Assembly (NCBI GenBank): GCA_964567785.1
Contig: CAZMOK010000011.1
Location: forward strand, 657 to 64,656
Direction: 5' to 3'
DNA: 64,000 nt
DNA from: an uncultured Bacteroidales bacterium
GTDB lineage: Bacteria > Bacteroidota > Bacteroidia > Bacteroidales > JAGOPY01
The notes under the pieces are model-generated. The model had not been told where the DNA came from and ran no database searches. It saw only the letters and a program-made list of their open reading frames with translations. Positions 10,783 through 24,811 of the stretch are shown here, one piece after another. Position numbers and translations under genes: made by a program. The first letter of the stretch is position 1. Each line of letters starts with the position of its first letter.

Positions 10783-13700
10783 ATGAAAAAGATCACTGCG
10801 ATCTGCCTGCTATCTCTCTTTACCAGTTTCTCATTACCAAGCCAGGAAAAGGCTACCATCAAATTCGACCGTATCACTACCGAGAACATTATTGTTCAGA
10901 AAGGGTTGTCGCAGAACTCAGGATATGCCATCCTTCAGGATAAAAGAGGCTTCATGTGGTTCGGTACATGGGACGGGCTGAACAGGTACGATGGGTATGA
11001 GTTCATAGAGTATGATGTGGAGAGTGGTTTGAGCCATAATACAATAAGGGACCTGTATGAAGATGACAACGGTTATCTCTGGATTGCAACTGAAGGAGGG
11101 CTCGACAGGCTCGATATGGAAACGGGTGAAATTGTGATCTATAGAAAGGACATTACTGTGCCCAATTCTTTGAGCGACAGCTATATTCTTGACATCAACC
11201 CCCAGGGGGACGTTCTTTGGATATCCACCGCGAATGGTCTTAATAAATATAATATGGAGACCGGCACCTTTAAGAGGATCAAATTTTACGACGGTGAGGG
11301 AGATCCGGATATGGCCAGCTATATTAACAGGACCTATTCCGACAGATCAGGGAACCTTTGGATCGCAACGAGATATGGCCTTCACAAGTATGATCTTCTG
11401 GAGGACGAATATCATCCCTTCTACCACGACCCTGCCGATAAGAGGAGCCTTTCATCAAATAATGTAAATGATGTCCTTGAAGACAGTGAAGGCAATATCT
11501 GGATCGGAACGGCCAATGGTCTCAATAAAATGGAGCCTGATAGCGATGGTTTTGTCAGGTATATGAATGATAAGAAAGATGCGGAAAGCCTGAGTGACAA
11601 CCATGTGAGTGTCCTGTATGAAGACAATAAGGGCCACATTTGGGTAGGCACCTCAAATATGCTCAACATATTGGATCCTGAAACCGGGAAGTTCAGAAGG
11701 CTGATGAACAGGATGAGCAGTGTGAGCCTGAGCAACAACAACATCCTTTCGATCTATGAAGATCCTTCAGGAACGATCTGGGTCGGGACCTACAAAGGGA
11801 TCAACAAAGTTGACAAGAACTCGAGCCGTTTTCCTCACTACAGCCATATACCCGATGATCCGTCAAGCCTTTCAAATAATATTGTTTATGCGATAAACGA
11901 ATGTTCCGATGACAATCTTTGGGTTGGCACATACGGTGGCCTTAATATAATGGACCGCGCCAGGGAAGAATTCACTGTTCTTGAACACCGGCCTGATGAC
12001 CCGAACAGTATCGCCAGCAATAAGATAAGGGCTATCGTTGAAGATCCCGGTGGTGTTATTTGGATAGGGTTTGAAAATTCGGGCCTCGATTCTTATAATA
12101 AGGAGACAGGAGAATTCACTCATTACAGTTATTCGCCCGATGATACCAACAGCCTTATTGATAACAGGATCGTTGCGATGGAATCGGATAATTCTGGAAG
12201 GATCTGGATAGGGACAAGGTCAGGCCTGAACGTTTTCGACCCTGAAACCGGTATTCATAATCACATAACCTTTCAGCCCGGAGATACTGCCTCCCTGGTA
12301 AGCCCGGTTGTGCTGGGGGTCTATCTCAACAGTAAGGAAGATATGTGGGTCGGGACCGATTACGGGGTCCATGTTTTTGATATGGAGCTCAACCGGATTG
12401 AATCATTTTATCCCCAACCGGATAACCCGAAAGCTTTAAAAGGCAGCAGGATAATGTTCATAGGTGAAGACGCGGATGGCTACTACTGGCTCGGGACTAT
12501 TGGTTCAGGGCTGAGCCGCTACGACCCTTTGACGGGAGAATTCAGGAATTTCGGGGAGAACGAGGGCCTGCCCAATAATGTCGTATATGCTGCATTGGAT
12601 GATGGAAACGGCTTTCTCTGGATTACTACAAATAAAGGTCTTGCAAAGTTCGACAAGAGGAATGAAAGCTTTGTTGTATATGATGCCAAGGATGGGATCC
12701 AGGGGAATGAGTTCAATGCAGGTGCTTACCATCAGAATGAACAGGGAGAGCTGTTTTTTGGCGGTATGAATGGCCTTAATGCCTTCCGCCCTGAAGACAT
12801 CAGGGTCAACAAATCAATCCCCAGGCTTGTGATCACAGAAGTAAGGGTATTCAATGAAGCTCTCAAGGGCCCTTTTTATGATGGTGATACTATTTTTCTC
12901 AGCTATCGCGATAATTTTTTCTCGATAAAGTTTGCTGCCCTGGAGTATACAAATCCCTCCAAGAATATATTCCGGTATAAGCTTGAGAATTATGACAAAG
13001 ACTGGATAACTGCAAAAGCCAACCGCAGGGTAGCGGAATACAAGAAAGTTTCGTCGGGCAGTTATACTTTCAGGTTAATAGGAGCCAATAATGATGGTAT
13101 CTGGAACCAGGAGGGCATTACCCTGAACCTCGTGATAAGACCTCCATGGTGGGAAACCTGGGCTTTCAGGATACTCTTCGCAATAGTGATCATCTTTTCT
13201 TTCTGGATTATCATATACAGCCGCTTTAAAACACTCAAGAAGAAGCATGATGTGGAAAAGAAAATGCTCAACATTGAAAAGGAAATGTTTGAAATAGAGC
13301 AGAAAGCACTGAGACTTCAGATGAACCCCCATTTCATTTTCAATTCACTCAATGCCATACAGAGTTTTGTAATAGCTAATGATACCGACAAAGCCATTGC
13401 CTATTTGGCAAAATTCTCTCACCTGATGAGAATGATACTGGCCAATTCGAGCGAAGCTTACATCCCTCTTAAGGATGAACTAAAAGCCGTACAGTATTAT
13501 ATAGACCTTGAAAAGCTCAGGTTCGATGATAAATTCGAATACGAGATCTCGGTTGAAGATGATATCGATGAGGAGTTCATTGAGATCCCCCCGATGATCC
13601 TGCAGCCTTATGTGGAAAATGCCATAATACACGGGCTGATCCATGCCGAAAAGAAAGGACAGCTTGAAATAATAGTGAGCCTGGAGAAAAAGTCGATGAA

Positions 13701-13929
13701 ATGCCTTATCCAGGACAACGGTATAGGACGTGAAAAGGCCAATGAACTGAGAGAGCAGTCGGGCATAAAAAGACAGCCCAGGGGTATGATGATAACACGT
13801 GAACGCCTGGATATATTAAAGAACCAGTACAAAGAAGATTTTGGTGTTAAGATCATAGACCTGAAGGATAAGAAAGGCCGGCCGGCCGGTACGCGGGTGG
13901 AAATTACCTTCCACTACTTTGAGGCATAG
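10783..13929 (+). CDS. sensor histidine kinase: periplasmic two-component-regulator propeller repeats + Y_Y_Y, LytS/YehU-type kinase core
   Basis: 1048 aa with a signal peptide. There are more than 10 repeats of the W[IV]GT..GLN.[YF] propeller motif and one TM helix (WAFRILFAIVIIFSFWIIIY). The His_kinase block LQMNPHFIFNSLNAIQSF and an HATPase region (LIQDNGIG) follow. Confidence 0.85.
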   Translation: MKKITAICLLSLFTSFSLPSQEKATIKFDRITTENIIVQKGLSQNSGYAILQDKRGFMWFGTWDGLNRYDGYEFIEYDVESGLSHNTIRDLYEDDNGYLWIATEGGLDRLDMETGEIVIYRKDITVPNSLSDSYILDINPQGDVLWISTANGLNKYNMETGTFKRIKFYDGEGDPDMASYINRTYSDRSGNLWIATRYGLHKYDLLEDEYHPFYHDPADKRSLSSNNVNDVLEDSEGNIWIGTANGLNKMEPDSDGFVRYMNDKKDAESLSDNHVSVLYEDNKGHIWVGTSNMLNILDPETGKFRRLMNRMSSVSLSNNNILSIYEDPSGTIWVGTYKGINKVDKNSSRFPHYSHIPDDPSSLSNNIVYAINECSDDNLWVGTYGGLNIMDRAREEFTVLEHRPDDPNSIASNKIRAIVEDPGGVIWIGFENSGLDSYNKETGEFTHYSYSPDDTNSLIDNRIVAMESDNSGRIWIGTRSGLNVFDPETGIHNHITFQPGDTASLVSPVVLGVYLNSKEDMWVGTDYGVHVFDMELNRIESFYPQPDNPKALKGSRIMFIGEDADGYYWLGTIGSGLSRYDPLTGEFRNFGENEGLPNNVVYAALDDGNGFLWITTNKGLAKFDKRNESFVVYDAKDGIQGNEFNAGAYHQNEQGELFFGGMNGLNAFRPEDIRVNKSIPRLVITEVRVFNEALKGPFYDGDTIFLSYRDNFFSIKFAALEYTNPSKNIFRYKLENYDKDWITAKANRRVAEYKKVSSGSYTFRLIGANNDGIWNQEGITLNLVIRPPWWETWAFRILFAIVIIFSFWIIIYSRFKTLKKKHDVEKKMLNIEKEMFEIEQKALRLQMNPHFIFNSLNAIQSFVIANDTDKAIAYLAKFSHLMRMILANSSEAYIPLKDELKAVQYYIDLEKLRFDDKFEYEISVEDDIDEEFIEIPPMILQPYVENAIIHGLIHAEKKGQLEIIVSLEKKSMKCLIQDNGIGREKANELREQSGIKRQPRGMMITRERLDILKNQYKEDFGVKIIDLKDKKGRPAGTRVEITFHYFEA

Positions 13930-14077
13930 AATAAGCTATATATTGAATAACCGGCCTTTAGATAAATATTATCATTTTGCCCTGGGAATTGAGTTTGTTT
14001 TTTCTTAATTTAGCATAAGGCAAAAGGATTTCCGGGCTGGGATTTTCCCGTTTTTTGATAATTTACAGACGCAAAGA

Positions 14078-14827
14078 ATGATTACGGCTATCATTATAGA
14101 AGATGAGCAAAAGTCGGTGGATACGCTCAAAGGGCTCCTCTCAAGATATTGCCCCTCGGTAACTGTGTTAGATGTGGCAGGAGGGTATCGTGAGGGTATC
14201 GAAAAGATCAGGCTTCATAGCCCTGATGTTATCTTCCTGGATATCCAGATGCCTGATGGCAGCGGTTTTAAAGTGCTGGAAGAATTGAAAGAAATGAATT
14301 TTGACGTGATCTTTACAACTGCTTTCGATCAGTTTGCAATCAAAGCGATCAAATACAGCGCCCTTGACTACCTGTTAAAACCAATTGATCCGCAAGAGCT
14401 TATGGAGGCGGTCAAAAAAGTCGATTCCAAAAAACGCACCTCCGATAAGAACAAGAGTATTGAAGCGCTGCTCGACAATATCAAGTCACCCGAAGAAGAT
14501 CCTCACAAAATAGTGCTTTCCACATCTGAGAAGATCCACATAATAGATGTAAAAGATATTGTAAGGTGTGAATCGGATAACTATTACACTCATTTCTATT
14601 TTACTGACGGTTCAAAGCTCCTTGTTTCGAAAACGCTGAAAGAGAACGAAGAACTGCTCAGTAACCACAACTTCATCAGGCCTCATAAGTCGCACCTGAT
14701 AAATGCCGGCTACATCAAGAGCTTTGTGAAACAGGATGGCGGTTACATTATAATGGATGACGGCAGCAAGATCCCTGTTTCGAGAAGGAAAAAAGAAAAG
14801 ATTATGGAAATCCTGATGAATTTATAA
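14078..14827 (+). CDS. LytTR-family DNA-binding response regulator
   Basis: 249 aa. The receiver domain is marked by IIEDE, DVIFLDIQMPDGSG and LDYLLKP. The C-terminal LytTR domain is marked by IVRCESDNYYTHFYF and RPHKSHLIN. Confidence 0.9.
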   Translation: MITAIIIEDEQKSVDTLKGLLSRYCPSVTVLDVAGGYREGIEKIRLHSPDVIFLDIQMPDGSGFKVLEELKEMNFDVIFTTAFDQFAIKAIKYSALDYLLKPIDPQELMEAVKKVDSKKRTSDKNKSIEALLDNIKSPEEDPHKIVLSTSEKIHIIDVKDIVRCESDNYYTHFYFTDGSKLLVSKTLKENEELLSNHNFIRPHKSHLINAGYIKSFVKQDGGYIIMDDGSKIPVSRRKKEKIMEILMNL

Positions 14828-14850
14828 AGATTCTACATAACACCCTGAAA

Positions 14851-14889
14851 GCCGTAAACTGATTGACTTTTGCCGTAAACTTGTTGATC
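14851..14889. promoter_or_regulatory. pair of direct repeats, candidate LytTR response-regulator binding site
   Basis: The repeats are GCCGTAAACTGATTGAC (14851-14867) and GCCGTAAACTTGTTGATC (14872-14889), with a 10/10 identical core and a 21-bp register. On the minus strand the cores read TCAGTTTAC and CAAGTTTAC, against the LytTR consensus [TA][AC][CA]GTTN[AG][TG]. Confidence 0.4.
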
Positions 14890-14913
14890 AGCCCCTTCCC
14901 ATTTTTAATATAT

Positions 14914-14921
14914 TACTTTTA
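14914..14921 (+). promoter_or_regulatory. degenerate Bacteroidota -7 box (TACTTTTA)
   Basis: It lies 24 nt upstream of ATG 14946, the same spacing as the perfect TAnnTTTG boxes elsewhere in the window. The last base is A instead of G. Confidence 0.3.
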
Positions 14922-14945
14922 TCTTTAGGCCTCAAAACCTAAAGC

Positions 14946-15446
14946 ATGGATGATCTTATATATTTATTACTGTTCCTTGCCTGGGCTGCATTTGCCTTTT
15001 ACAGGAACAGCCAGAAGAAAAAGCAAAGAGAGGCCCAGAGGACAAGAGCCGCTCAACAGCAGCCTGATCCAGAAGAGAATCAGGAAGAGGGAAGCCCGGG
15101 TTCTTTGCTCGAGGAAATCCTGCTGGGAGAACAGGAAGAGAGAACTATTGAGGAACCATATTTTGAATCGGAAAGTCCGGAAAGTGAAAGCCGGATCTAT
15201 ACCGAGACACCCGGAGCAGAAGAAGAAAATGTGCCGGTGGATTTTGATGACGAGTATAATCAGAGAGGTGTTACCTCGGTTGAGGAGCTCGATTTGGAAA
15301 ACGGTGAAGTCGAATCAGATAAGGATGAAAAAGCCAGCAGAAATCTTCAGGTGGTCGCATTTGAAGAAGACCAAAACGAGGCTTTCGAGTTTGATCTCCG
15401 AACAGCTGTGATATATTCTGAAATCCTTAATCCTCGCTACTTTTAG
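14946..15446 (+). CDS. membrane-anchored acidic protein, unknown function
   Basis: 166 aa. It has an N-terminal TM helix (LIYLLLFLAWAAFAFY), a basic patch, and a long Glu/Asp-rich region. The conserved-looking C-terminus is FDLRTAVIYSEILNPRYF. Confidence 0.55.
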   Translation: MDDLIYLLLFLAWAAFAFYRNSQKKKQREAQRTRAAQQQPDPEENQEEGSPGSLLEEILLGEQEERTIEEPYFESESPESESRIYTETPGAEEENVPVDFDDEYNQRGVTSVEELDLENGEVESDKDEKASRNLQVVAFEEDQNEAFEFDLRTAVIYSEILNPRYF

Positions 15447-15478
15447 AAGTATTTAGGGTTTGTTAAATTATTGTTAAT

Positions 15479-15486
15479 TATATTTG
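15479..15486 (+). promoter_or_regulatory. Bacteroidota sigma-A -7 box TATATTTG
   Basis: Matches TAnnTTTG, 77 nt upstream of the TonB-receptor ATG 15564. It is a possible internal promoter of the module. Confidence 0.35.
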
Positions 15487-15563
15487 GAGATTAAATTTTT
15501 TTATTTATAACTTTACCGACTTCAAACTTGCGCAGTGTTTAACCTAACATAAATTTTGTGGGT

Positions 15564-18500
15564 ATGTTAAGAAATTTACTTTTAACTACTGGATTTGTAC
15601 TTTTATCCTGCCTTTACGCTTTTTCTCAACAGGGAGCACTTCAAGGAAAAATAACTGATAAAGAAACCGGAGAGCCACTTCCCTTCGTCAACATAGTTGT
15701 TGAAGTGGGGGGCACCCAGATGGGTGGTGCATCATCCGACTTTGATGGTAAGTATGTCATCAAACCCCTGCCCCCGGGCAGGTATGACGTAAAAGCCACT
15801 TATGTTGGGTATAAGCCATTGCTTATCAGGGGTGTTGGTATTGCAGCCGACAAGATCACTTTCTACGACATCCAGATGGAGTCGACTGCCCAGACCCTGG
15901 AAACTTTTGAGGTAGTGGATTATAAAGTGCCTCTTATTTCGAAGGACCAGACCACCTCTGGTGGATCGGTTACCTCAGAGCAGATCGCCAAGATGCCGAA
16001 CCGTAATGCCAACTCAATAGCCACAACCGTTGGTGGTGTATTCTCACGCGACGGTGAGCGAGGCCGTGTGAGAGGTGCCCGTAGTGATGCCACCGTTATG
16101 TTTATCGATGGTATCAGGGTTAGAGGTTCCTCAAACCTGCCGGCCCAGGCCATCGAGCAGGTGGATGTGGTTTTGGGTGGGGTGCCCGCCCAATACGGGG
16201 ATGCCACGGGTGGTATTATCAACGTAACAACCAAAGGACCCTCAAGGAAGTTTGGAATGGGGGTAGAAGTAGAATCATCTCAGTTCCTCGATGCCTTTGG
16301 ATATAACAGGGTCGGGCTCAACCTTAACGGTCCGCTCTTTTCAAGGAAAGACGAGGAAGGAAACCGCACGACATCCCTCCTTGGATTCTTCCTTGCCGGC
16401 GATTTCACTTACCGCCGGGACAGCAGGCCTGTCATAAGCGATATATACAAGGTAAAGGATGATTCACTCAGGTTCCTTGAAAACAACCCCCTAAGACCAT
16501 CCGGTTTAGGCAGCGGAACATTCCCCAATGCAGCTTATACAACTTTTAACAGCCTTGAAAAGATAAATACTAACCAGAATACCCCTTCGTGGGAGGTTAA
16601 CCTTCAGGGTAAAATTGACGTAAGGACAACCGAAACCATTAACCTGACATTCGGTGGTAGCTATTACCACAGAGACAGGTATAACTGGAATTATTTCCAC
16701 TCATTGTACAATTACGACAAAAACGCCCATGATGTAGATAAGACCTGGAGGGTATTCGGTAAGTTTACACAGCGTTTCCCAACCAAGAGTGAGAGCGATG
16801 CCTTCGTAAAGAACTTCTACTACACTATACAGGCTGACTACACGAAGAATACCGGATACCAGGAAGATCCCGACCATAAGGACGATTACTTCAAGTACGG
16901 CTACCTGGGCAAATTCACAACCTATAAGACCCCTACTTATGAAACACGCCAGAACGATACAGTGAACGGACAAGCTATCCCCGAAGCTATTTACTTAAAT
17001 AGCTGGGACTTCGATACGCTGGTAACTTTTGATCCTTATGATTACAACGAGATCATTGCAAATTATACAACTTCTTATTACGACCTGTTTGACGATCCGT
17101 TCGGCAATTATCAGAACCTCGACCAGATACAGCTTGGTGGTGGCCTGGTCAACGGTCAGTCGCCCGGAAGCATATATGGCCTTTGGGGTGCCCCCGGAAC
17201 AATACAGACAGGTTACAGCCAGTATGATAATTCCCAGATCGGTATAAATGCCTCAGGTGCGGCCGACTTTGGAAATCATGAGCTTAAATTCGGTATTCAA
17301 TACGACCAGAGGATCGACAGGTTCTTTGCCTATGCCCCACAGCGTTTCTGGACACTCATGCGTCAGCTCACAAACTTCCATATCAGGGAGCTGGATATTG
17401 AAAATCCTTTCATCGTGCCCGGCTCAGATCTCGACACTGTAAAATATTACAGGAATTATGACCAGTTAACCCAAAGGACTTTCGACATCAACCTGAGGAA
17501 AAAGCTTGGACTGCCGGTCGATGGTGTCGATTTTATTGATATCGATTCCTATGATTATAACACCCACTCCATTAATTATTACGATAAGAACGGAAAATTG
17601 CACACTATAAATTATGGTGAGAATCTTTTCACCATAGATATGTTTAGCGCCGACGAACTCTGGAACGACGGTATTTCATCTTATACCAACTACAGGGGTT
17701 ATGATTATAAGGGTAATAAGCTTGAAGCCCGTCCGTCATTTGAAGACTTCTTTACGAAAACCGACGAGAATGGTGATTTTACCCGCGACATTGGCGCTTA
17801 TGAGCCTATTTATGTAGCCGGTTATATCCAGGATAAGTTCGCATTCCGTGACCTTATCTTTAATGTGGGTTTGAGGGTCGACAGGTTTGATGCCAACCAG
17901 ATGGTTCTCAAAGATCCTTACTTGCTTTACGAAGCCTACACCGCTGGTGAAGTTTCTGAAATAAGTGGTACACCTGTTGAACACCCCGATAACATCGGTG
18001 GTGACCATGTGGTTTATATAGATAACGTGAATAATCCCACCAGGGTGGTTGGTTATCGCAGTGAAGGAGTCTGGTTTAATGCTGCCGGTGATGAGATCCT
18101 TGATCCCAACGTGCTTGATGTAGGTTCAGGTATTTCACCTTACATAGTCGACCCGTCGATCGAAAGGCCAACCGTCGACGCATTCGAGGACTATGAACCA
18201 CAGTGGAACTGGATGCCGCGTATTTCATTCTCATTCCCGATCTCTGATGAGGCGCTGTTCTTTGCCCATTACGATGTTCTTACTCAGCGCCCGAGGGGCA
18301 ACATCTTTGCCAACCCGTCAACTTACTATTTCTTTGATAATATTTCAGGTACAATTAACAATCCGAACCTGAAACCGGAACAGACGATCGACTATGAGGT
18401 TGGTTTCCAGCAGAAGCTGACGAATACATCATCCCTTAAACTTGTTGCTTTCTACAGGGAGCAACGTGGGATGCTACAGATCTTCCGTTTCAATGGTGCT

Positions 18501-19277
18501 TATCCGAAGGATTACACCTCATTTAACAACATTGACTTCGGTACTGTGAAAGGGTTTACCATTCAGTACGACCTCAGGAGAACAGGTAATGTGGCATTGC
18601 AGGCATTCTACACACTTCAGTTTGCAGACGCAACCGGTTCATCAGAAACAACAACAGCAGCTCTCGTTGCTTCAGGTCTTCCAAATCTTCGTTCAACCTT
18701 CCCGATCGAGGATGACCGTCGTCATAACTTCAACATTTTCCTCGATTTCAGGTGGGCCGACGGAGCTGACTACAACGGACCTGTTACCAGGAGGGAAGGA
18801 TCAGGAAAACCGCCTATCCAGTGGTTGAAGAACACAGGATTCACAGTCACCATGACCGGTGGTTCAGGAACACCTTATACTCAAGCGAGGAATGTGACCG
18901 GAATCAATCAGGCCGGAAACAACCTTGTAAAAGGTTCTTATTTCGGATCAAGACTGCCATGGTCCTTCAGGGTCAACTTAACTCTTGATAAGGATATTTA
19001 TTTCAACCTTGGAAAAGGCGAGGACAAAAGGCAGGCATCCCTTAATGTTTACCTGCGTGTAAATAACCTCCTCAACTCCAAGAATATCCTGAGTGTATAT
19101 CCATATACTGGAAATCCTGATGATGATGGTTACCTCACAGCCCCCGAATGGCAAAAACAGATCAGCGAGCAGTTGAGTGAAGAAGCTTACAGGGACCTTT
19201 ACTCTATTGCGGTGAACAGGCCCTGGAACTATGCGTCACCCAGAACGATCCGCCTCGGGATGATCCTGAATTTCTAA
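15564..19277 (+). CDS. TonB-dependent receptor with N-terminal carboxypeptidase-regulatory-like domain
   Basis: The track ORF starts at GTG 15558; I prefer ATG 15564 (MLRNLLLTTGFVLLSCLYAFSQ). It has a CarboxypepD_reg pattern (GKITDKETGEPLPFVNIVV..DGKYVI..LPPGRYDV) and a plug (VTSEQIAKMP, IDGIRVRG, GGVPAQYGDATGGIINVTTK). A very long barrel ends in the aromatic ...RLGMILNF. Confidence 0.85.
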   Translation: MLRNLLLTTGFVLLSCLYAFSQQGALQGKITDKETGEPLPFVNIVVEVGGTQMGGASSDFDGKYVIKPLPPGRYDVKATYVGYKPLLIRGVGIAADKITFYDIQMESTAQTLETFEVVDYKVPLISKDQTTSGGSVTSEQIAKMPNRNANSIATTVGGVFSRDGERGRVRGARSDATVMFIDGIRVRGSSNLPAQAIEQVDVVLGGVPAQYGDATGGIINVTTKGPSRKFGMGVEVESSQFLDAFGYNRVGLNLNGPLFSRKDEEGNRTTSLLGFFLAGDFTYRRDSRPVISDIYKVKDDSLRFLENNPLRPSGLGSGTFPNAAYTTFNSLEKINTNQNTPSWEVNLQGKIDVRTTETINLTFGGSYYHRDRYNWNYFHSLYNYDKNAHDVDKTWRVFGKFTQRFPTKSESDAFVKNFYYTIQADYTKNTGYQEDPDHKDDYFKYGYLGKFTTYKTPTYETRQNDTVNGQAIPEAIYLNSWDFDTLVTFDPYDYNEIIANYTTSYYDLFDDPFGNYQNLDQIQLGGGLVNGQSPGSIYGLWGAPGTIQTGYSQYDNSQIGINASGAADFGNHELKFGIQYDQRIDRFFAYAPQRFWTLMRQLTNFHIRELDIENPFIVPGSDLDTVKYYRNYDQLTQRTFDINLRKKLGLPVDGVDFIDIDSYDYNTHSINYYDKNGKLHTINYGENLFTIDMFSADELWNDGISSYTNYRGYDYKGNKLEARPSFEDFFTKTDENGDFTRDIGAYEPIYVAGYIQDKFAFRDLIFNVGLRVDRFDANQMVLKDPYLLYEAYTAGEVSEISGTPVEHPDNIGGDHVVYIDNVNNPTRVVGYRSEGVWFNAAGDEILDPNVLDVGSGISPYIVDPSIERPTVDAFEDYEPQWNWMPRISFSFPISDEALFFAHYDVLTQRPRGNIFANPSTYYFFDNISGTINNPNLKPEQTIDYEVGFQQKLTNTSSLKLVAFYREQRGMLQIFRFNGAYPKDYTSFNNIDFGTVKGFTIQYDLRRTGNVALQAFYTLQFADATGSSETTTAALVASGLPNLRSTFPIEDDRRHNFNIFLDFRWADGADYNGPVTRREGSGKPPIQWLKNTGFTVTMTGGSGTPYTQARNVTGINQAGNNLVKGSYFGSRLPWSFRVNLTLDKDIYFNLGKGEDKRQASLNVYLRVNNLLNSKNILSVYPYTGNPDDDGYLTAPEWQKQISEQLSEEAYRDLYSIAVNRPWNYASPRTIRLGMILNF

Positions 19278-19314
19278 ACTTTTTTGAATAACAGAATATA
19301 CAGCTATTAAAATA

Positions 19315-22300
19315 ATGATCAAAATGAGGAACATATTCAAAGTATTACTACTCGGCTTATTTTGCTTCCTTATAACTGAAGTTACTATTGCTGAAGAGCA
19401 CATTGGATTTAACAAAAAGAAATCGAAAGAAGTGAAGGCCAGTGCTGCCGGATGTTCCGCCGCCTCAGGCTTCCGCTTCCTCGACATCAACAATGTCAGG
19501 GCGAGGATAAACACCGGTGGAGACATGTGGTGGGACCTCCCGGGCGGTATCGGTGCCCAGTATTACATCCCCAAGACAGGCTCTGCCACCTCTATGTTCT
19601 CTGGTTCATTATGGATCGGTGGCCTCGACATCAATAACCAGCTGAAACTGGCTGCTGTCAGGTACCGCCAGGTAGGTAATGATTACTGGCCCGGACCTTT
19701 GACAGTCGACGGAACTGCTGCCATTGAACAGGAAACATGTGCCAAATATGACGAGCACTTTATCATGACCAGGGCCGAAGTTGACCTGTTCCTTGAATGG
19801 TACAACAGTGATAATAAGGCAGAAGATTTCCCCGGTTATACCATCCCGCAGTCGATCCTTGACTGGCCCGCCCATGGTGATGTTGCCCTGGGACAAAGTT
19901 ACTATCTGGCACCATTCTTCGATGCAGATGGTGATGGCAATTACGATCCAAATAACGGGGATTATCCTTATTATGACCTCGACAACGAACTTTGTCCGAT
20001 CAACTATGCCGATGACCCGAATTACGTTCCGGCAAGGACTATGGAGGAGGAACTGACCGAATACCCGGTGCCTTTAAAGGGAAGCATCCTCGTCGACCAG
20101 GTGATCAAAGGGGACCAGACCCTTTGGTGGGTGTTCAACGACAAAGGTAACGCCCATACAGAAACCCAGGGGGCTCCCATTGGTATGGAGATCAGGGGCC
20201 AGGCATTTGCCTTCGCAACTAACGATGTGATCAATAACATGACCTTTTACAGCTATGAGATCATCAACCGTTCAACTTTTGAGCTGACCAATACATTCTT
20301 CAGCCCATGGGTTGACACCGACCTCGGTTATGCGTTTGACGACTTTGTAGGTTGTGATGTACTGAGAGGGCTCGGCTATTGCTATAACGGTGTCGATATA
20401 GACGGCAGCGGTGAGCCGGAATCATATGGTGCACAACCACCTGCTGTTGGAGTTGACTTCTTTCAGGGGCCATATATTGATCCCGATGGCTTTGATAATC
20501 CTGCTTTCCAGGGAGGAACACCCGAAGGTTGCGCAGCACTCGGACAGGGCCCAAACTTTGAAGTTGACCAGATGGCCATTAACGGCGTGAACTTCGGAAA
20601 TGATATTGTAGATGATGAAAGATATGGTATGCGCCGTTTTGTATATCATATTAATTGTAATGGCTCTCCCTGGTGCGATCCTGATATTGCACCCGAATAT
20701 TATAACTTCCTGCGTGGTATCTGGCAGGATAACACCAAAATGCTTTATGGAGGTAACGCACATGTTAATTCAGGTGCTTCAGGAAGGGAATGTGACTTCA
20801 TGTTCCCGGGCGATTCCGACCCCTGTAACTGGGGAACCAACTTCCAGCCTCCCGGTGATGGTTACAATCAGAACGGTAAATACTGGACTGAAGTGGAAGC
20901 CGGGAACAATCCCGACGACAGGCGGTTTATGCAGTCGGCAGGTCCTTTCACCCTGAAACCGGGTGCCGTAAACTATATTACCGTAGGTATCCCCTGGGCA
21001 CGCGCTGCCTCAGGCGGACCGGAAGCCTCTGTTGAGCTACTCAGGATTGTCGATGACAAATGCCAGGCGCTCTTCGACAACTGTTTTAAAGTTATTGATG
21101 GCCCAAGTGCACCGGATCTCGTGATCCAGGAACTTGACAAGCAATTCATTTTCTATCTGACAAACAGCCCTCTGTCAAACAATTATAAAGAACAATACGA
21201 AGAATTTGACCCGAATATCATTCAGCCGCTGCCCGGCCAGCCCGACGAAAGAAGCGACTCAGTATATCGTTTTGAAGGTTACCAGATATTCCAGCTCAGG
21301 GATGCCAATGTAACCCTCGGTGCTGCCAAGGATGAGTTCGGAAATTATAACCCCGACCTTGTAAGGCTCGTTGCCCAGTTTGATGTTAATAACGGAGTTA
21401 CACAAATTGTAAACCATTATTTCAACAAAGCAATTGGCTTTAATGTTCCGGTTGTGGAGGTTGAAGGTGGTGATGAAGGCATCAACCATTCATTTGTGAT
21501 AACTGAAGATGCATTTGCCACCGGTGATAAAAGGCTTGTCAACCACAAGCAGTATTATTATACCGCAGTGGCTTATGCCTATAATGAATACCTGCCCTAC
21601 GACCCTGAAGACGTAAATGGTAAACTCGGGCAGAAAACACCCTATCTTGCTGGTCGTAAGAACATCAAGGTTTACACCGGTATTCCCCATATCCCGCTTT
21701 ATTCGGAGCGTACAACTTCTTCCAACGCACAGTATGGCGACGGTGTTGAGATAACAAGACTCGAAGGTCAGGGCAATGACGGGGTCATTATCGACCTTAG
21801 CGAAGAGACCATTGAAGATATCCTTTCCAGGCAGCCAGCCGGCGCTGTGGTTGACGGAGATACCGTTAAGTTTGGTGATCCTGAGTATCCGCTGGCCTAT
21901 CAGGCTAAATATGTAAAAGGAAAAGGGCCAATATCCATAAAGGTCGTTGATCCTCTTAACCTCAAGCAGGGTAAGTACAAACTAATGTTCGATTCGCTCT
22001 TCATGGAGAAGAACTTTGATGTTACCGGTACTGAAGGTCTTGTTGCCGGAGGAGATACAGCAAGCTATGCTTCAGGTACATGGAAGCTCATCGATATGAA
22101 TACGAACGAAGTGGTGCCTGGTGACGTCCCGATCCACGATCAGAACGAACAGTTGTTCCCTGACCTGGGAATCTCGATTTCCATGAAATCGATTTATGAG
22201 CCGGGGCCCTATAAGATAGGCGAAAAGCAGGATCAGTCGAGCTTTATTTCCATTTATGACAATCTTGCCCAAAACAACGGGTTGCTTGAATCTTCCCTTA

Positions 22301-23694
22301 CTTTTGCCGATAGTTCAAGGCAATGGCTCACCGGGGTGCAGGACAATGATGTACCCGGAAGCCCGCAGAACTGGATAAGGGCCGGTACATATACAGGTGG
22401 TATTGCAGGTTCAGGCGACTGGAACATGCCCTCGAAACCACTCGATCCCAATGGTGCTTACGAGAAAATCGTTAACGGTACATGGACGCCTTATGTCCTG
22501 ACAGCAGCCGGAGAACAGAGCGATGTAGGTCCGGCTTACAGTCTCCAGTCGAAAACCATGCCTATGGCAGATCTCTCAAGTGTCGACATTGTTATGACTT
22601 CCGACAGGAGCAAATGGACCAGGGCGGTGGTACTGGAAATGTCACCGGATGAAACACTCTCCGAAGGAAACGTTGAAAGGTTCAAGTTCCGTGCCGGCCA
22701 GTCTGTTGATAAGGATGGAAATCCCGCAGAAATCGGCAGCGGGCCAAGCGAAGATCCTGACGACCCGAACTACATAGCAGAAACCGGTATGGGATGGTTC
22801 CCCGGATATGCTATCAATGTAGAAACCGGTGAGAGGCTTAATATTGCCTATGGTGAAGACAGCTACCTGTCGCGACAGAACGGCAGGGATATGGTTTTCA
22901 ATCCCACAAGCCAATTATACGACCCGGTTGACTTTAACCCTGTATTCGGAGGGAAGCATTATGTTTACGTAATGGCTTCTGCCACCAGGGATATCAATGA
23001 TTCAGTTTACAATTTCCCGCCCTACGACGCGGGCAGGTTCATCCGCTACGGATACGATCTGTATGAATTACCTGACTTTCTCTATGAGATAACGTGGTTC
23101 TCCACAGTGATGTGGGTTGGTATGCCTCTGCCTTTAAATGAGGAACTCTGGCTGTCGAATGAAGCAAAGATCAGGATCAGGCTCGGAAAATCCTATGAGA
23201 GGTTTTACTCCCAGCCACTGGACTCTACTGCTATTGCAAATTCAGAGAATGGACATTTTCCATTGTATGAATTCGAAACAAAAGGCTTCACCGAGATCAG
23301 CCAGGAGGTAGTTGCAGAGAACGAGCTCGACCTTATCAAGGTTGTCCCGAATCCCTATTATGCTTATGCAGGCGGGCCGGGATATGAGAGGAATACCCTT
23401 GATAACAGGGTCAAGATCACAAATATCCCTGAACAGTGTACAATCACCATTTACAATGTGAGCGGTACCCTTGTAAGGCAGTATAAAGTTGATAAAGGCG
23501 GCATTGTGAACCCGAGGTCTGCCACTGCGGGCGTTGAAACCGATGCCAAAACATCGATCGATTGGGACCTGAAGAATTTTGCAGGTGTCCCTGTTGCCGG
23601 TGGGGTCTACATTATTCATGTTAAGTCCGATTATGGAGAAAAAGTTGTGAAATGGTTCGGAGGTCTGCGTCCTCCTGATCTCAACGTCTTTTAA
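19315..23694 (+). CDS. large secreted protein of unknown function with T9SS-type C-terminal sorting domain
   Basis: 1459 aa with a signal peptide (FKVLLLGLFCFLITEVTIA) and the Ca-loop-like DADGDGNYDPNNGDYP. I recognise no catalytic motif. The last ~90 aa follow the T9SS CTD pattern: VVPNPYY...CTITIYNVSGTLVRQY...IDWDLKNFAGVPVAGGVYIIHVKSDYGEKVVKWFG. Confidence 0.6.
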   Translation: MIKMRNIFKVLLLGLFCFLITEVTIAEEHIGFNKKKSKEVKASAAGCSAASGFRFLDINNVRARINTGGDMWWDLPGGIGAQYYIPKTGSATSMFSGSLWIGGLDINNQLKLAAVRYRQVGNDYWPGPLTVDGTAAIEQETCAKYDEHFIMTRAEVDLFLEWYNSDNKAEDFPGYTIPQSILDWPAHGDVALGQSYYLAPFFDADGDGNYDPNNGDYPYYDLDNELCPINYADDPNYVPARTMEEELTEYPVPLKGSILVDQVIKGDQTLWWVFNDKGNAHTETQGAPIGMEIRGQAFAFATNDVINNMTFYSYEIINRSTFELTNTFFSPWVDTDLGYAFDDFVGCDVLRGLGYCYNGVDIDGSGEPESYGAQPPAVGVDFFQGPYIDPDGFDNPAFQGGTPEGCAALGQGPNFEVDQMAINGVNFGNDIVDDERYGMRRFVYHINCNGSPWCDPDIAPEYYNFLRGIWQDNTKMLYGGNAHVNSGASGRECDFMFPGDSDPCNWGTNFQPPGDGYNQNGKYWTEVEAGNNPDDRRFMQSAGPFTLKPGAVNYITVGIPWARAASGGPEASVELLRIVDDKCQALFDNCFKVIDGPSAPDLVIQELDKQFIFYLTNSPLSNNYKEQYEEFDPNIIQPLPGQPDERSDSVYRFEGYQIFQLRDANVTLGAAKDEFGNYNPDLVRLVAQFDVNNGVTQIVNHYFNKAIGFNVPVVEVEGGDEGINHSFVITEDAFATGDKRLVNHKQYYYTAVAYAYNEYLPYDPEDVNGKLGQKTPYLAGRKNIKVYTGIPHIPLYSERTTSSNAQYGDGVEITRLEGQGNDGVIIDLSEETIEDILSRQPAGAVVDGDTVKFGDPEYPLAYQAKYVKGKGPISIKVVDPLNLKQGKYKLMFDSLFMEKNFDVTGTEGLVAGGDTASYASGTWKLIDMNTNEVVPGDVPIHDQNEQLFPDLGISISMKSIYEPGPYKIGEKQDQSSFISIYDNLAQNNGLLESSLTFADSSRQWLTGVQDNDVPGSPQNWIRAGTYTGGIAGSGDWNMPSKPLDPNGAYEKIVNGTWTPYVLTAAGEQSDVGPAYSLQSKTMPMADLSSVDIVMTSDRSKWTRAVVLEMSPDETLSEGNVERFKFRAGQSVDKDGNPAEIGSGPSEDPDDPNYIAETGMGWFPGYAINVETGERLNIAYGEDSYLSRQNGRDMVFNPTSQLYDPVDFNPVFGGKHYVYVMASATRDINDSVYNFPPYDAGRFIRYGYDLYELPDFLYEITWFSTVMWVGMPLPLNEELWLSNEAKIRIRLGKSYERFYSQPLDSTAIANSENGHFPLYEFETKGFTEISQEVVAENELDLIKVVPNPYYAYAGGPGYERNTLDNRVKITNIPEQCTITIYNVSGTLVRQYKVDKGGIVNPRSATAGVETDAKTSIDWDLKNFAGVPVAGGVYIIHVKSDYGEKVVKWFGGLRPPDLNVF

Positions 23695-23743
23695 TAAAAC
23701 TACGAATCAAGAACTATTTGCGATAAAATAAACCTATCCTGAT

Positions 23744-24811
23744 ATGAAGAACTTTTATAGAACGCTCATTGCCTCAGTGTTGATCATAGCATTGATACTT
23801 CCAGTCTCGCAGGTTTATGCCGGTAATAAGGACAGATCGGGCCAGGCAGGAGCCCCGGAGCTTCTGATCAATCCCTGGTCAAGAAGCTCCGGTTGGGCCA
23901 GTGCCAGCACTTCACGTGTGGTAGGCCTTGAGAGCCTCTTTGCCAATGTGGCCGGAATGGCCTTTACTAAAAAGACAGAAGTTGCATTTACTTATACCGA
24001 CTGGCTTAAAGGTACTGGTATCAACGTCATCAATTTTGGGTTGGCCCAGCGGCTCGGAGAAAGCAGCGTAATAGGATTCAACGTAATGTCTATGTCGTTT
24101 GGCGATCTTGATGTCACTACCGTAGAACAACCCGAAGGTACAGGAGCAACTTTCAAACCTAATCTGCTGAACGTTAATGTTTCCTTCTCAAAGGCCTTTT
24201 CGAACAGCATATATGGTGGAATTAACTTTAAGGTGATATCCCACTCAATCCCGGATGCCAGTGCCAGTGGAATAGGCATTGATGCCGGCGTTATGTATGT
24301 GACCGGTGAGAGGGACCAGGCAAGATTTGGTGTTGCACTCAAAAATATCGGACCAAAGATGAAGTATACAGGTGATGGCTTTTCCATCAAAGCCCTCTTC
24401 GAAAGCAGTGATTATTCAGTGACAGTTCACCAGAGGTCGGAAAGTTTTGAATTGCCAACCCAGCTCCGTATCGGTGCCTCTTACGATTTCCTTCTCGGTG
24501 AAAGTAACAGGCTCACTGTGGCCGGATCATTCATCTCCAATTCGTTCACCAAAGACCAGTTTGTACTCGGTGCGGAATTCAGCCTTTTCGATTACCTGAT
24601 GCTGAGGGCCGGATATACCTATGAGTCGGATATCACTGAAGATATCGAAAACACCAACAGGACAAACGTCTACAACGGACCAAGTTTCGGTGCATCCGTA
24701 CAGGTTCCTTTCAACAAGGAAACGGGCGCAGGATTCGCTATCGATTATTCCTATCAGACAACCTCCCACTTCAAGGGAACGCACGTGATCGGGGTAAAAA
24801 TTGGTCTCTGA
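23744..24811 (+). CDS. PorV/PorQ-family (FadL-like) outer-membrane beta-barrel protein
   Basis: 355 aa with a signal peptide. The N-terminal GQAGAPELLINPWSRSSGWASASTSRVVGLESLFANVAGMAF follows the PorV/PorQ signature. Alternating beta-strand pattern continues to the C-terminus ...GTHVIGVKIGL. Confidence 0.6.
   Translation: MKNFYRTLIASVLIIALILPVSQVYAGNKDRSGQAGAPELLINPWSRSSGWASASTSRVVGLESLFANVAGMAFTKKTEVAFTYTDWLKGTGINVINFGLAQRLGESSVIGFNVMSMSFGDLDVTTVEQPEGTGATFKPNLLNVNVSFSKAFSNSIYGGINFKVISHSIPDASASGIGIDAGVMYVTGERDQARFGVALKNIGPKMKYTGDGFSIKALFESSDYSVTVHQRSESFELPTQLRIGASYDFLLGESNRLTVAGSFISNSFTKDQFVLGAEFSLFDYLMLRAGYTYESDITEDIENTNRTNVYNGPSFGASVQVPFNKETGAGFAIDYSYQTTSHFKGTHVIGVKIGL

What the first reader, a model, noticed from the sequence alone, without database searches (positions are those of the whole stretch)
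14851..14921. LytTR-type direct repeats between the LytTR regulator gene and the downstream outer-membrane module
Seen in the sequence: GCCGTAAACTGATTGAC (14851-14867) and GCCGTAAACTTGTTGATC (14872-14889) share a 10/10 identical core. They are 21 bp apart start to start, which is two helical turns. The pair begins 23 nt after the stop of the LytTR regulator gene. It ends 24 nt before a degenerate -7 box, TACTTTTA (14914-14921), which is itself 24 nt before ATG 14946.

Established knowledge: LytTR regulators such as AgrA and AlgR bind paired ~9-bp direct repeats with 12-13 bp spacers. The consensus is [TA][AC][CA]GTTN[AG][TG]. Read on the minus strand the cores here are TCAGTTTAC (8/9 match) and CAAGTTTAC (7/9 match).

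Inference: this is an activator-dependent promoter. The adjacent kinase/regulator pair would control the acidic-protein/TonB-barrel/T9SS-cargo/PorV-like genes through it. The imperfect -7 box fits dependence on an activator.
Basis: partly seen in the sequence, partly recalled or inferred. Interest (0 to 1): 0.6.

Follow-up and report, generated by a model that had tools for sequence, protein, structure and literature searches.

The report
LytTR-type operator before outer-membrane operon
The two 21-bp-spaced repeats are a real, deeply conserved promoter element, most likely the docking site of the neighbouring LytTR response regulator, and the same element also precedes many type IX secretion cargo genes and a candidate small RNA in other Bacteroidota.

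Summary
GCCGTAAACTGATTGA (14851) and GCCGTAAACTTGTTGA (14872) lie 21 bp apart, between a Response_reg+LytTR gene and a 166-aa protein gene.

The pair is not chance:
- A weight matrix built only from other clades ranks it first of 383,802 position pairs in the window (29.0 bits; next best 13.8).
- It is kept in 19 of 40 syntenic loci on both sides of the deepest split of the regulator tree, while the spacers diverge.
- A strict pattern scan of metagenomes found at least 120 copies. Fifty are in the same regulator-to-operon position.

The geometry is rigid. The first C of the proximal repeat lies 47-50 nt before the last base of a -7 box. The window's TACTTTTA box sits at 49.

The other 70 metagenome copies lie in front of unlinked genes. 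Most of these encode type IX secretion (T9SS) cargo proteins, and some encode a structured ~190-nt candidate sRNA.

Paralogous LytTR regulator genes carry different repeats in the same geometry.

The best reading (0.72) is an activator-dependent promoter bound by the adjacent phosphorylated regulator. The architecture is the classic LytTR one, so this is a new member of a known kind. The T9SS-linked regulon is the new part.

Binding and the transcription start are untested. Twenty-one syntenic loci lack the pair.

The parts
10783..13929 (+). Sensor histidine kinase, 1048 aa. It has a periplasmic Reg_prop/Y_Y_Y propeller sensor and a LytS-type His_kinase core.
   Evidence: Pfam Reg_prop 2.6e-58, Y_Y_Y 3.6e-14, His_kinase (PF06580) 1.4e-23. 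It is syntenic with the regulator in loci L009-L047.
14078..14827 (+). LytTR-family response regulator, 249 aa. This is the proposed binder of the repeats. The phospho-acceptor is predicted to be Asp55, by inference from the LDIQMP receiver motif.
   Evidence: Pfam Response_reg 9.9e-21 and LytTR 3.9e-20. The nearest NCBIfam models are BtsR and LytR, both below their cut-offs.
14850..14866 (+). Distal half-site DR1, AGCCGTAAACTGATTGA. The core CCGTAAACTGATT is at 14852-14864.
   Evidence: Scores 23.4 bits against a 226-half-site matrix and is the top half-site in the window. Orthologous sites are listed.
14871..14887 (+). Proximal half-site DR2, TGCCGTAAACTTGTTGA. The core CCGTAAACTTGTT is at 14873-14885, 21 bp from DR1.
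   Evidence: Scores 16.2 bits and is the second-best half-site in the window. The 21-bp register is kept in every class-A and metagenome copy.
14914..14921 (+). -7-type promoter box TACTTTTA. Its last base is 49 nt from the first C of DR2.
   Evidence: A TAnnTTTN box ends 48-50 nt from DR2 in 46 of 49 orthologous and 51 of 68 other metagenome loci. The distance is 47-50 nt in the GTDB loci.
14920..14927 (+). Overlapping second -7-like box TATCTTTA, 55 nt from DR2. It is an alternative box, seen only in the window and its closest relative.
   Evidence: Read from the sequence. It is not at the conserved distance.
14927..14931 (+). Predicted transcription start zone, about 6-10 nt after the conserved box. 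This is inference only.
   Evidence: Derived from the position of the box. No RNA reads were found.
14946..15446 (+). First gene after the promoter: a 166-aa protein with an N-terminal hydrophobic helix and an acidic tail, and no family match.
   Evidence: Translation. No Pfam or NCBIfam hit. Homologues beginning M(E/D)DxIY follow the regulator in 37 of 39 GTDB loci.
15558..24811 (+). Presumed co-regulated genes: a TonB-type barrel (15558-19277), a 1459-aa protein with a weak T9SS-tail match (19315-23694) and a PorV/PorQ-family barrel (23744-24811).
   Evidence: Pfam CarboxypepD_reg and Plug; PorV. NCBIfam PorV_fam 3.9e-47. The C-terminus of the 1459-aa protein matches Por_Secre_tail only at E=0.005, below the cut-off. 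Gene order is conserved. A -7-like box in the 15447-15557 gap could be a second promoter.

Best explanation
The two repeats form the operator of an activator-dependent promoter. The conserved core of each repeat is R-CCG-W-W-AACT-G-A-TT, and the repeats are spaced 21 bp centre to centre.

The proposed mechanism is as follows:
1. The propeller/LytS-type kinase (10783-13929) senses an envelope signal and phosphorylates the adjacent LytTR response regulator (14078-14827).
2. The regulator binds as a dimer to the two half-sites on one face of the DNA. They span roughly -75 to -39 relative to the predicted start.
3. The bound dimer recruits or repositions RNA polymerase on a promoter that has a -7 box (TACTTTTA, 14914-14921) but no -33 element.
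4. This turns on the 166-aa protein gene and probably the TonB-barrel, 1459-aa protein and PorV-like genes behind it.

In other Bacteroidota the same operator, in the same geometry, precedes unlinked T9SS-cargo genes and a candidate small RNA. The regulator therefore probably heads a dispersed regulon of surface and secreted proteins.

What is shown: the repeat, its conservation, its fixed geometry and its gene associations. What is inferred: who binds it, that it activates, and where transcription starts.
For: 1. The regulator is a Response_reg+LytTR protein. Known LytTR sites are two 9-11-nt repeats with 11-13-nt spacers placed just upstream of the -35 element (PMC4847170; PMC6193735). YpdB's site is GGCATTTCAT twice with an 11-nt spacer, which also gives a 21-bp period.

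2. The pair sits in the same gap, on the same strand and at 21 bp in 19 of 40 syntenic loci. It scores 24.5-32.8 bits there. No other position pair in those ~12-kb loci exceeds about 16 bits. The spacers and flanks are not conserved.

3. A matrix from the other clades finds the window's pair as the top hit of 383,802.

4. Loci that carry the pair lie on both sides of the deepest split of the regulator tree.

5. The metagenome scan gave at least 120 copies of a roughly 42-bit pattern. Fifty are regulator-to-repeat-to-small-protein-to-TonB-barrel loci, with regulators 54-77% identical to the window's.

6. The distance to the -7 box is rigid at 48-50 nt, in 46 of 49 orthologous and 51 of 68 other loci. 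In the other loci TTG starts 6 nt after the 13-nt core of DR2 (5 nt between) in 27 of 62.

7. Paralogous LytTR regulator genes are followed by different repeats (TACCAsTTAT, two or three copies) at 21 bp. Their distance to the box is the same 48-49 nt. Repeat sequence thus changes with regulator clade while the geometry stays.

8. The window holds exactly one such operator.
Against: - No binding, expression or transcription-start data exist. No RNA reads were found in four runs.
- Twenty-one of 40 syntenic loci keep the kinase, regulator and operon but lack a recognisable pair. Their LytTR domains are nearly unchanged. Either the site has diverged beyond recognition, or the regulator has other targets, or the link is weaker than it looks. 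Seven of these loci keep a CGWTTTT element at the same 48-50-nt distance.
- In the 70 unlinked loci no regulator gene is nearby. Those copies show only that some trans-acting factor exists.
- The window's promoter lacks the TT(G) -33 element seen in many other copies.
- The site lies downstream of the regulator gene. It therefore gives no autoregulation, unlike many LytTR systems.
Confidence: 0.72

Rival explanations
1. The repeats are a real activator site, but a different trans-acting factor binds them. Candidates are another LytTR protein or an AraC-type or hybrid two-component regulator. AraC-type regulators also use direct repeats about 21 bp apart next to the -35 element. On this view the neighbouring kinase/regulator pair is only a syntenic neighbour of one regulon member.
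For: Seventy of the 120 metagenome copies lie next to unrelated housekeeping genes with no regulator nearby. Twenty-one syntenic loci keep the regulator without the repeats. The 21-bp direct-repeat architecture of AraC I1-I2 is from my own knowledge.
Against: No AraC-type gene is in the locus. The pair abuts the LytTR gene in 69 independent loci. Two further LytTR regulator clades each carry their own 21-bp repeats in the same position and geometry. That pattern is hard to explain unless the adjacent regulator is the binder.
Confidence: 0.15
2. The adjacent LytTR regulator binds the repeats, but the effect is not simple activation. It could be repression, a roadblock to read-through from the regulator gene, or anti-activation as with PlnD.
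For: No terminator is predicted between the regulator gene and the repeats, so read-through is possible. Some LytTR proteins repress from the same repeats; PlnD is described in the abstract of PMC2714321.
Against: The site lies upstream of the -33 position at a rigid distance from the -7 box. That is the geometry of activators. Many copies sit in front of unlinked genes where no read-through needs to be blocked.
Confidence: 0.08
3. The repeat is a chance or slippage duplication with no function.
For: Short direct repeats do occur by chance, at 2.6 per shuffled window. The match to the LytTR consensus is meaningless.
Against: The cores are conserved while the spacers diverge. The window's pair ranks first of 383,802 under a matrix from other clades. 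There are at least 120 copies of a roughly 42-bit pattern in metagenomes. The distance to the -7 box is fixed.
Confidence: 0.02

Closest known systems
YpdB operator in the E. coli yhjX promoter, and BtsR/YehT at yjiY (LytS/LytTR two-component systems)
   Same: Both involve a LytS-type kinase with a separate REC+LytTR regulator. YpdB binds two direct 10-nt repeats (GGCATTTCAT) with an 11-nt spacer, giving a 21-bp period (PMC4847170). BtsR is the best-scoring NCBIfam model for the window's regulator. The YehT oligonucleotide in that paper also carries CCGCT-type repeats with a CCG start.
   Different: The repeat sequence differs. The kinase here has a large periplasmic propeller sensor instead of a 5TM-Lyt domain. 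The promoter is of the Bacteroidota -33/-7 type. The targets are outer-membrane and T9SS-linked genes, not a transporter. The NCBIfam scores are far below the equivalog cut-offs, so this regulator is not a BtsR or YpdB orthologue.
AgrA sites at agr P2/P3 (Staphylococcus aureus)
   Same: Both have paired direct repeats bound by a LytTR response-regulator dimer just upstream of a promoter that works poorly without the activator (PMC4227749). In both, one regulator drives protein genes and a regulatory RNA: RNAIII for AgrA, a candidate sRNA here in related genomes.
   Different: AgrA's signal is a peptide pheromone and its system is autoregulated. Here the operator lies downstream of the regulator gene, and no copy was found upstream of the kinase. 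The conserved letters do not follow the AgrA consensus.
HdrR/BrsR-type LytTR regulatory systems (Streptococcus mutans and others)
   Same: Both have direct repeats with 11-13-bp spacers placed 4-11 bp upstream of the -35 element. In those systems too, the repeat sequences diverge from the family consensus (PMC6193735). Here DR2 ends 5 bp before the TTG in many copies.
   Different: Those regulators lack a receiver domain and are held in check by a membrane protein. Here the regulator is a classical phospho-accepting one. The small membrane-anchored acidic protein encoded just downstream is only a superficial parallel and was not tested.
AraC I1-I2 type class II activator sites
   Same: Both have direct repeats about 21 bp apart abutting the -35 region (from my own knowledge).
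   Different: No AraC-family gene is in the locus. The association here is with LytTR genes across three regulator clades.

Membership tests
LytTR response-regulator operator | Two direct (or inverted) repeats of 9-11 nt separated by 11-13 nt (PMC4847170) | tested here: met
   The identical core is 10 nt with an 11-nt spacer, a 21-bp period. The 21-bp register is kept in all 19 class-A loci and all metagenome copies. The conserved core is in fact 13 nt, CCGNWAACTKRTT.
LytTR response-regulator operator | Repeats lie immediately upstream of the -35-equivalent element of the regulated promoter (4-11 bp in PMC6193735) | tested here: met
   The first C of DR2 lies 47-50 nt before the end of the -7 box in nearly all copies. 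TTG begins 6 nt after the core of DR2 (5 nt between) in 27 of 62 unlinked copies. The window itself has no TTG there, so for the window the placement is judged from the -7 box alone.
LytTR response-regulator operator | A LytTR-domain regulator is encoded in the system | tested here: met
   Pfam LytTR 3.9e-20 plus Response_reg 9.9e-21, in the gene ending 23 nt upstream.
LytTR response-regulator operator | The LytTR protein binds the repeats specifically (gel shift or footprint) | not testable with these tools
   This needs purified protein. Indirect support exists: three regulator clades each have their own repeat sequence in the same geometry.
LytTR response-regulator operator | Match to the family consensus [TA][AC][CA]GTTN[AG][TG] | tested here: inconclusive
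   The 8/9 and 7/9 matches are on the minus strand. However, 4.8% of all 9-mers match at 7/9 or better, and 620 such pairs occur in the window. The literature says the family shares no common consensus (PMC4847170).
Bacteroidota housekeeping-sigma promoter (-33 TTTG / -7 TAnnTTTG; own knowledge) | A -7 box TAnnTTTG | tested here: met
   TACTTTTA matches TAnnTTT but ends in A instead of G. In orthologous loci the box at this position is TAnnTTTN in 46 of 49. In unlinked copies it is the canonical TAnnTTTG in 37 of 68.
Bacteroidota housekeeping-sigma promoter (-33 TTTG / -7 TAnnTTTG; own knowledge) | A -33 TTG/TTTG about 19-21 nt upstream of the -7 box | tested here: not met
   No TTG is found at 15-24 nt upstream of the box in the window. 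This fits dependence on an activator but is not proof of it.

The most novel reading that the evidence does not exclude
The propeller-sensor kinase and its LytTR regulator may be the master switch of a Bacteroidota-wide regulon. The regulon would be marked by the RCCGWWAACTGATT-N7-RCCGWWAACTGATT operator. It would coordinate expression of many T9SS-secreted surface proteins, a dedicated TonB-barrel/PorV-like module and a trans-acting small RNA, in response to a signal from the cell envelope or the secretion pathway. That would be a second regulatory layer for T9SS cargo alongside PorXY/SigP, with an AgrA/RNAIII-like logic.
Probability: 0.3. Interest if true: 0.8.

Novelty: new member of a known kind. 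Interest (0 to 1): 0.55.

Why it matters
LytTR regulators are common in Bacteroidota. I found no paper in the searchable library that describes an operator for one of them or links them to type IX secretion.

This site gives a concrete, testable wiring diagram for an uncharacterised but widely conserved outer-membrane module. It specifies the regulator, a 13-nt half-site, a 21-bp register and a 49-nt distance to the -7 box.

The same element in front of many T9SS-cargo genes and a structured candidate sRNA suggests that expression of secreted surface proteins is coordinated by a two-component system not previously described in these bacteria.

The matrix can be used directly to predict regulons in genomes and metagenomes.

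Tried and rejected
- I could not scan the window's own genome for further operator copies. I could not test whether operator and regulator co-occur across genomes.
- **RNA evidence.** No metatranscriptome holds this stretch, and four RNA runs with the same label gave zero reads. There is no transcription-start evidence.
Rejected as evidence.
- **Regulator residues versus presence of the repeats.** No LytTR-domain position separates loci with and without the pair, apart from D229 changing to S/N in one clade. This gave no support and no refutation.
- **A -33 element as a substitute for the repeats.** I asked whether loci without the pair had gained one. There was no clear difference.
- **A different repeat motif in the 21 loci without the pair.** Only a CGWTTTT half-site at the conserved distance turned up, in 7 loci.
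- **Autoregulatory site.** None was found upstream of the kinase or the small lipoprotein gene, in the window or in any of the ~12-kb loci.
- **Solved structures.** The search matched only the receiver domain.
- **Rfam.** No match for either small-RNA-like target.
- **Sigma-54 promoter.** I considered reading the conserved TTGC next to the box in some loci as a -12 element. I rejected this by eye, because the spacing is off by one and LytTR proteins are not sigma-54 activators.

Full report
**Observation.** GCCGTAAACTGATTGAC lies at 14851-14867 and GCCGTAAACTTGTTGATC at 14872-14889. The two share an identical 10-mer and 14 of 16 positions, 21 bp start to start. The pair begins 23 nt after the TAA stop (14825-14827) of a 249-aa gene. 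TACTTTTA is at 14914-14921 and the next ATG at 14946. Exact 10-mers repeated within 11-40 bp give 16 hits in the window, against 2.6 in shuffled sequence. One in this particular 118-bp gap is therefore unlikely by chance, though that argument is post hoc.

**Context.** The 249-aa protein is a Response_reg+LytTR regulator. The 1048-aa gene before it is a kinase with Reg_prop/Y_Y_Y propeller repeats and a LytS-type His_kinase core. Downstream lie four genes:
- a 166-aa protein with an N-terminal hydrophobic helix and an acidic tail;
- a 1239-aa CarboxypepD_reg/Plug barrel;
- a 1459-aa protein;
- a PorV/PorQ-family barrel.

The C-terminus of the 1459-aa protein matches the T9SS sorting domain only weakly (E=0.005, below the cut-off).

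**Conservation in genomes.** A scan of GTDB species representatives with the regulator gave 39 loci with the same gene order: lipoprotein (minus strand), kinase, regulator, small protein, TonB-type barrel, large protein. Their regulators are 54-98% identical to the window's.

In 19 of the 40 loci, counting the window, the gap after the regulator holds two similar half-sites exactly 21 bp apart on the coding strand. A matrix built from them scores these pairs at 24.5-32.8 bits. No other position pair in any ~12-kb locus, on either strand, exceeds about 16 bits.

The letters between and around the half-sites are not conserved between clades. This is the pattern expected of a protein-binding footprint.

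To avoid circularity I rebuilt the matrix from the 11 non-redundant loci outside the window's clade and scanned the 64-kb window. The 14850/14871 pair is the top hit of 383,802 position pairs, at 29.0 bits against 13.8 for the runner-up.

On the regulator tree, loci that carry the pair lie on both sides of the deepest split.

**Geometry.** In all 19 loci the first C of the proximal half-site lies 47-50 nt before the last base of a conserved box, TA(C/A/T)TTT(T)A. That box lies 18-39 nt before the start codon of the small protein. A second overlapping box, TATCTTTA (14920-14927), is not at the conserved distance.

**Metagenomes.** I scanned the metagenome collection for CCGNWAACTKRTT-N8-CCGNWAACTKRTT. 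This pattern carries about 42 bits, so well under one chance hit is expected per 10^12 bases.

- Fifty are orthologous loci, with the regulator (54-77% identical), then the repeats, then the small protein and the TonB barrel.
- Seventy are elsewhere. About seven of these are plain tandem repeats.
- In the remainder the upstream genes are unrelated housekeeping genes, such as lipoyl synthase, TsaD and a DUF2461-like protein, and no regulator is nearby.

A TAnnTTTN box ends exactly 48-50 nt from the first C of DR2 in 46 of 49 orthologous loci and 51 of 68 other loci. In 37 of the 68 it is the canonical Bacteroidota TAnnTTTG. In the unlinked copies TTG starts at position 19 in 27 of 62. That leaves 5 nt after the core of DR2 and 19-20 nt before the box. 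The element is therefore part of a fixed promoter architecture: distal repeat, proximal repeat, -33 element, -7 box.

**What the unlinked copies drive.**
- The first complete gene downstream carries a T9SS C-terminal sorting domain in 15 of about 22 loci. Among all other open frames of 100 aa or more in those loci the figure is 17 of 555 (local HMM).
- Pfam confirms 12 of the sorting-domain proteins.
- Others are SprB-repeat, BNR-propeller or VIT/VWA proteins.
- Seventeen of the downstream proteins form a single BLAST-linked cluster (E ≤ 1e-10); several full-length members are 1050-1150 aa.
- In at least nine loci there is no open frame. Instead there is a conserved ~190-nt unit ending in a hairpin and a T-run. 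Its predicted long stem has eight pairs with compensatory changes. It has no Rfam match. This is a candidate small RNA.

**Paralogous systems.** Regulators only 47-50% identical to the window's (loci L049, L052, L053, L055, L056) are followed by two or three copies of TACCA(G/C)TTAT, again exactly 21 bp apart. Their CC is again 48-49 nt before a TAnnTTTA box. A 34%-identical regulator (L059) is followed by GAAAGCCGACTTTCATA and GAAAGACACATTTCATA, 21 bp apart. The repeat sequence thus changes with the regulator clade while position and geometry stay the same. This is the best indirect evidence that the adjacent regulator is the binder.

With the metagenome regulators added, the window-type operator accompanies several basal regulator clades. 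One well-supported derived clade carries either a diverged version (CCTTAAACTTG / GCCGTTTTCTT) or none at all.

**What does not fit.**
- Twenty-one syntenic loci lack a recognisable pair anywhere in about 12 kb, yet their LytTR domains are almost unchanged. Seven of them keep a CGWTTTT element at the same 48-50-nt distance. I have no explanation for the rest.
- The window's promoter has no -33 TTG.
- No RNA data exist for this organism.
I therefore could not look for more copies in this genome or test co-occurrence across genomes. Within the 64-kb window there is only this one operator, plus a lone weak half-site at 50701.

The 8/9 and 7/9 minus-strand matches are counted correctly but carry no weight. 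In this window 4.8% of 9-mers reach 7/9, 16 of them lie in this gap alone, and 620 pairs at 21-22 bp spacing reach it. The phylogenetically conserved letters are CCG and AACT(G)ATT on the coding strand. The interior GTT of the minus-strand reading is not conserved in the diverged clade. The literature states that LytTR sites share an architecture but no common sequence (PMC4847170).

**Comparison with known systems.** The architecture is the classic LytTR one. It has two 9-11-nt repeats, an 11-13-nt spacer and a position just upstream of the -35 element (PMC4847170, PMC6193735, PMC4227749). The nearest parallel is YpdB at yhjX, with a 10-nt repeat, an 11-nt spacer and a LytS-type kinase. I therefore file it as a new member of a known kind.

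Three things are new relative to the papers I could search. The first is the phylum. The second is the propeller-type sensor. The third is the link to T9SS cargo and a candidate sRNA.

Earlier notes of this scan report the same kind of operator in other genomes. I read them only after my own. They are not independent evidence.

**Verdict.** The main rival is another trans-acting factor (0.15). Interest is 0.55.

Noticed in passing
L076, L097, L112, L121, L141, L145, L146, L156, L163 (metagenome loci; about 40-235 nt after the operator): A conserved ~190-nt non-coding unit lies directly behind the operator and the -7 box. It has a 5' AATTAATTTGGTTAATTAATT hairpin and a long stem with compensatory changes. 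A conserved single-stranded stretch UUUUGGGUUAAUAAGUUGUUCGUUU follows, then an intrinsic terminator. It has no Rfam match. It is a candidate LytTR-controlled small RNA. A shorter variant occurs in L113, L124 and L186.
   Followed up: partly
L049, L052, L053, L055, L056 (GTDB loci, just after the regulator stop): Paralogous LytTR regulators (47-50% identity) are followed by two or three TACCA(G/C)TTAT repeats at 21 bp and a -7 box 48-49 nt on. After that comes no open frame, only a conserved ~100-nt stretch (ACGTTCTTT...AAGGGTTTTTGTTTA...) ending in a hairpin with a T-run. This is a second, different small-RNA-like target. It has no Rfam match.
   Followed up: partly
L013-L016, L018-L020, L022, L023, L025-L029, L033, L035, L039, L042, L043, L045, L047: Twenty-one syntenic loci keep the kinase, regulator and operon but have no recognisable repeat pair. 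Seven keep a CGWTTTT element at the same distance from the -7 box. In L014 and L028 a 9-bp tandem AAATCC(A/G)CT lies in the gap instead. This is unexplained.
   Followed up: partly
window 14006-14060: The kinase-regulator gap holds a -7-like box TAATTTAG (14006-14013), the same style as the operon box. A weak hairpin with a T-run follows (14038-14057), before the regulator's ATG. The regulator may have its own promoter and a leader structure.
   Followed up: no
window 15507-15516: TATAACTTTA, a -7-like box, lies in the 111-nt gap between the 166-aa gene and the TonB-type barrel gene. It could be a second, internal promoter.
   Followed up: no
window 14946-15446: The 166-aa protein has a conserved M(E/D)DxIY...W..F hydrophobic N-terminus, a lysine-rich stretch and a long acidic tail. 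It matches no family but follows the regulator in 37 of 39 GTDB loci and in about 40 of the 50 orthologous metagenome loci. A membrane-anchored partner encoded next to a LytTR regulator recalls the inhibitor proteins of HdrRM-type systems. I did not test this.
   Followed up: no
window 56276-56294: A tandem 14-nt repeat (TCAGTTATCAGTTA...) contains AACTGAT-like words. It scores only 14 bits as an operator pair and lacks the CCG cores.
   Followed up: no
window 50701-50717: A lone half-site TACCGATAACTGGATGT scores 11.3 bits and has no partner 21 bp away.
   Followed up: no
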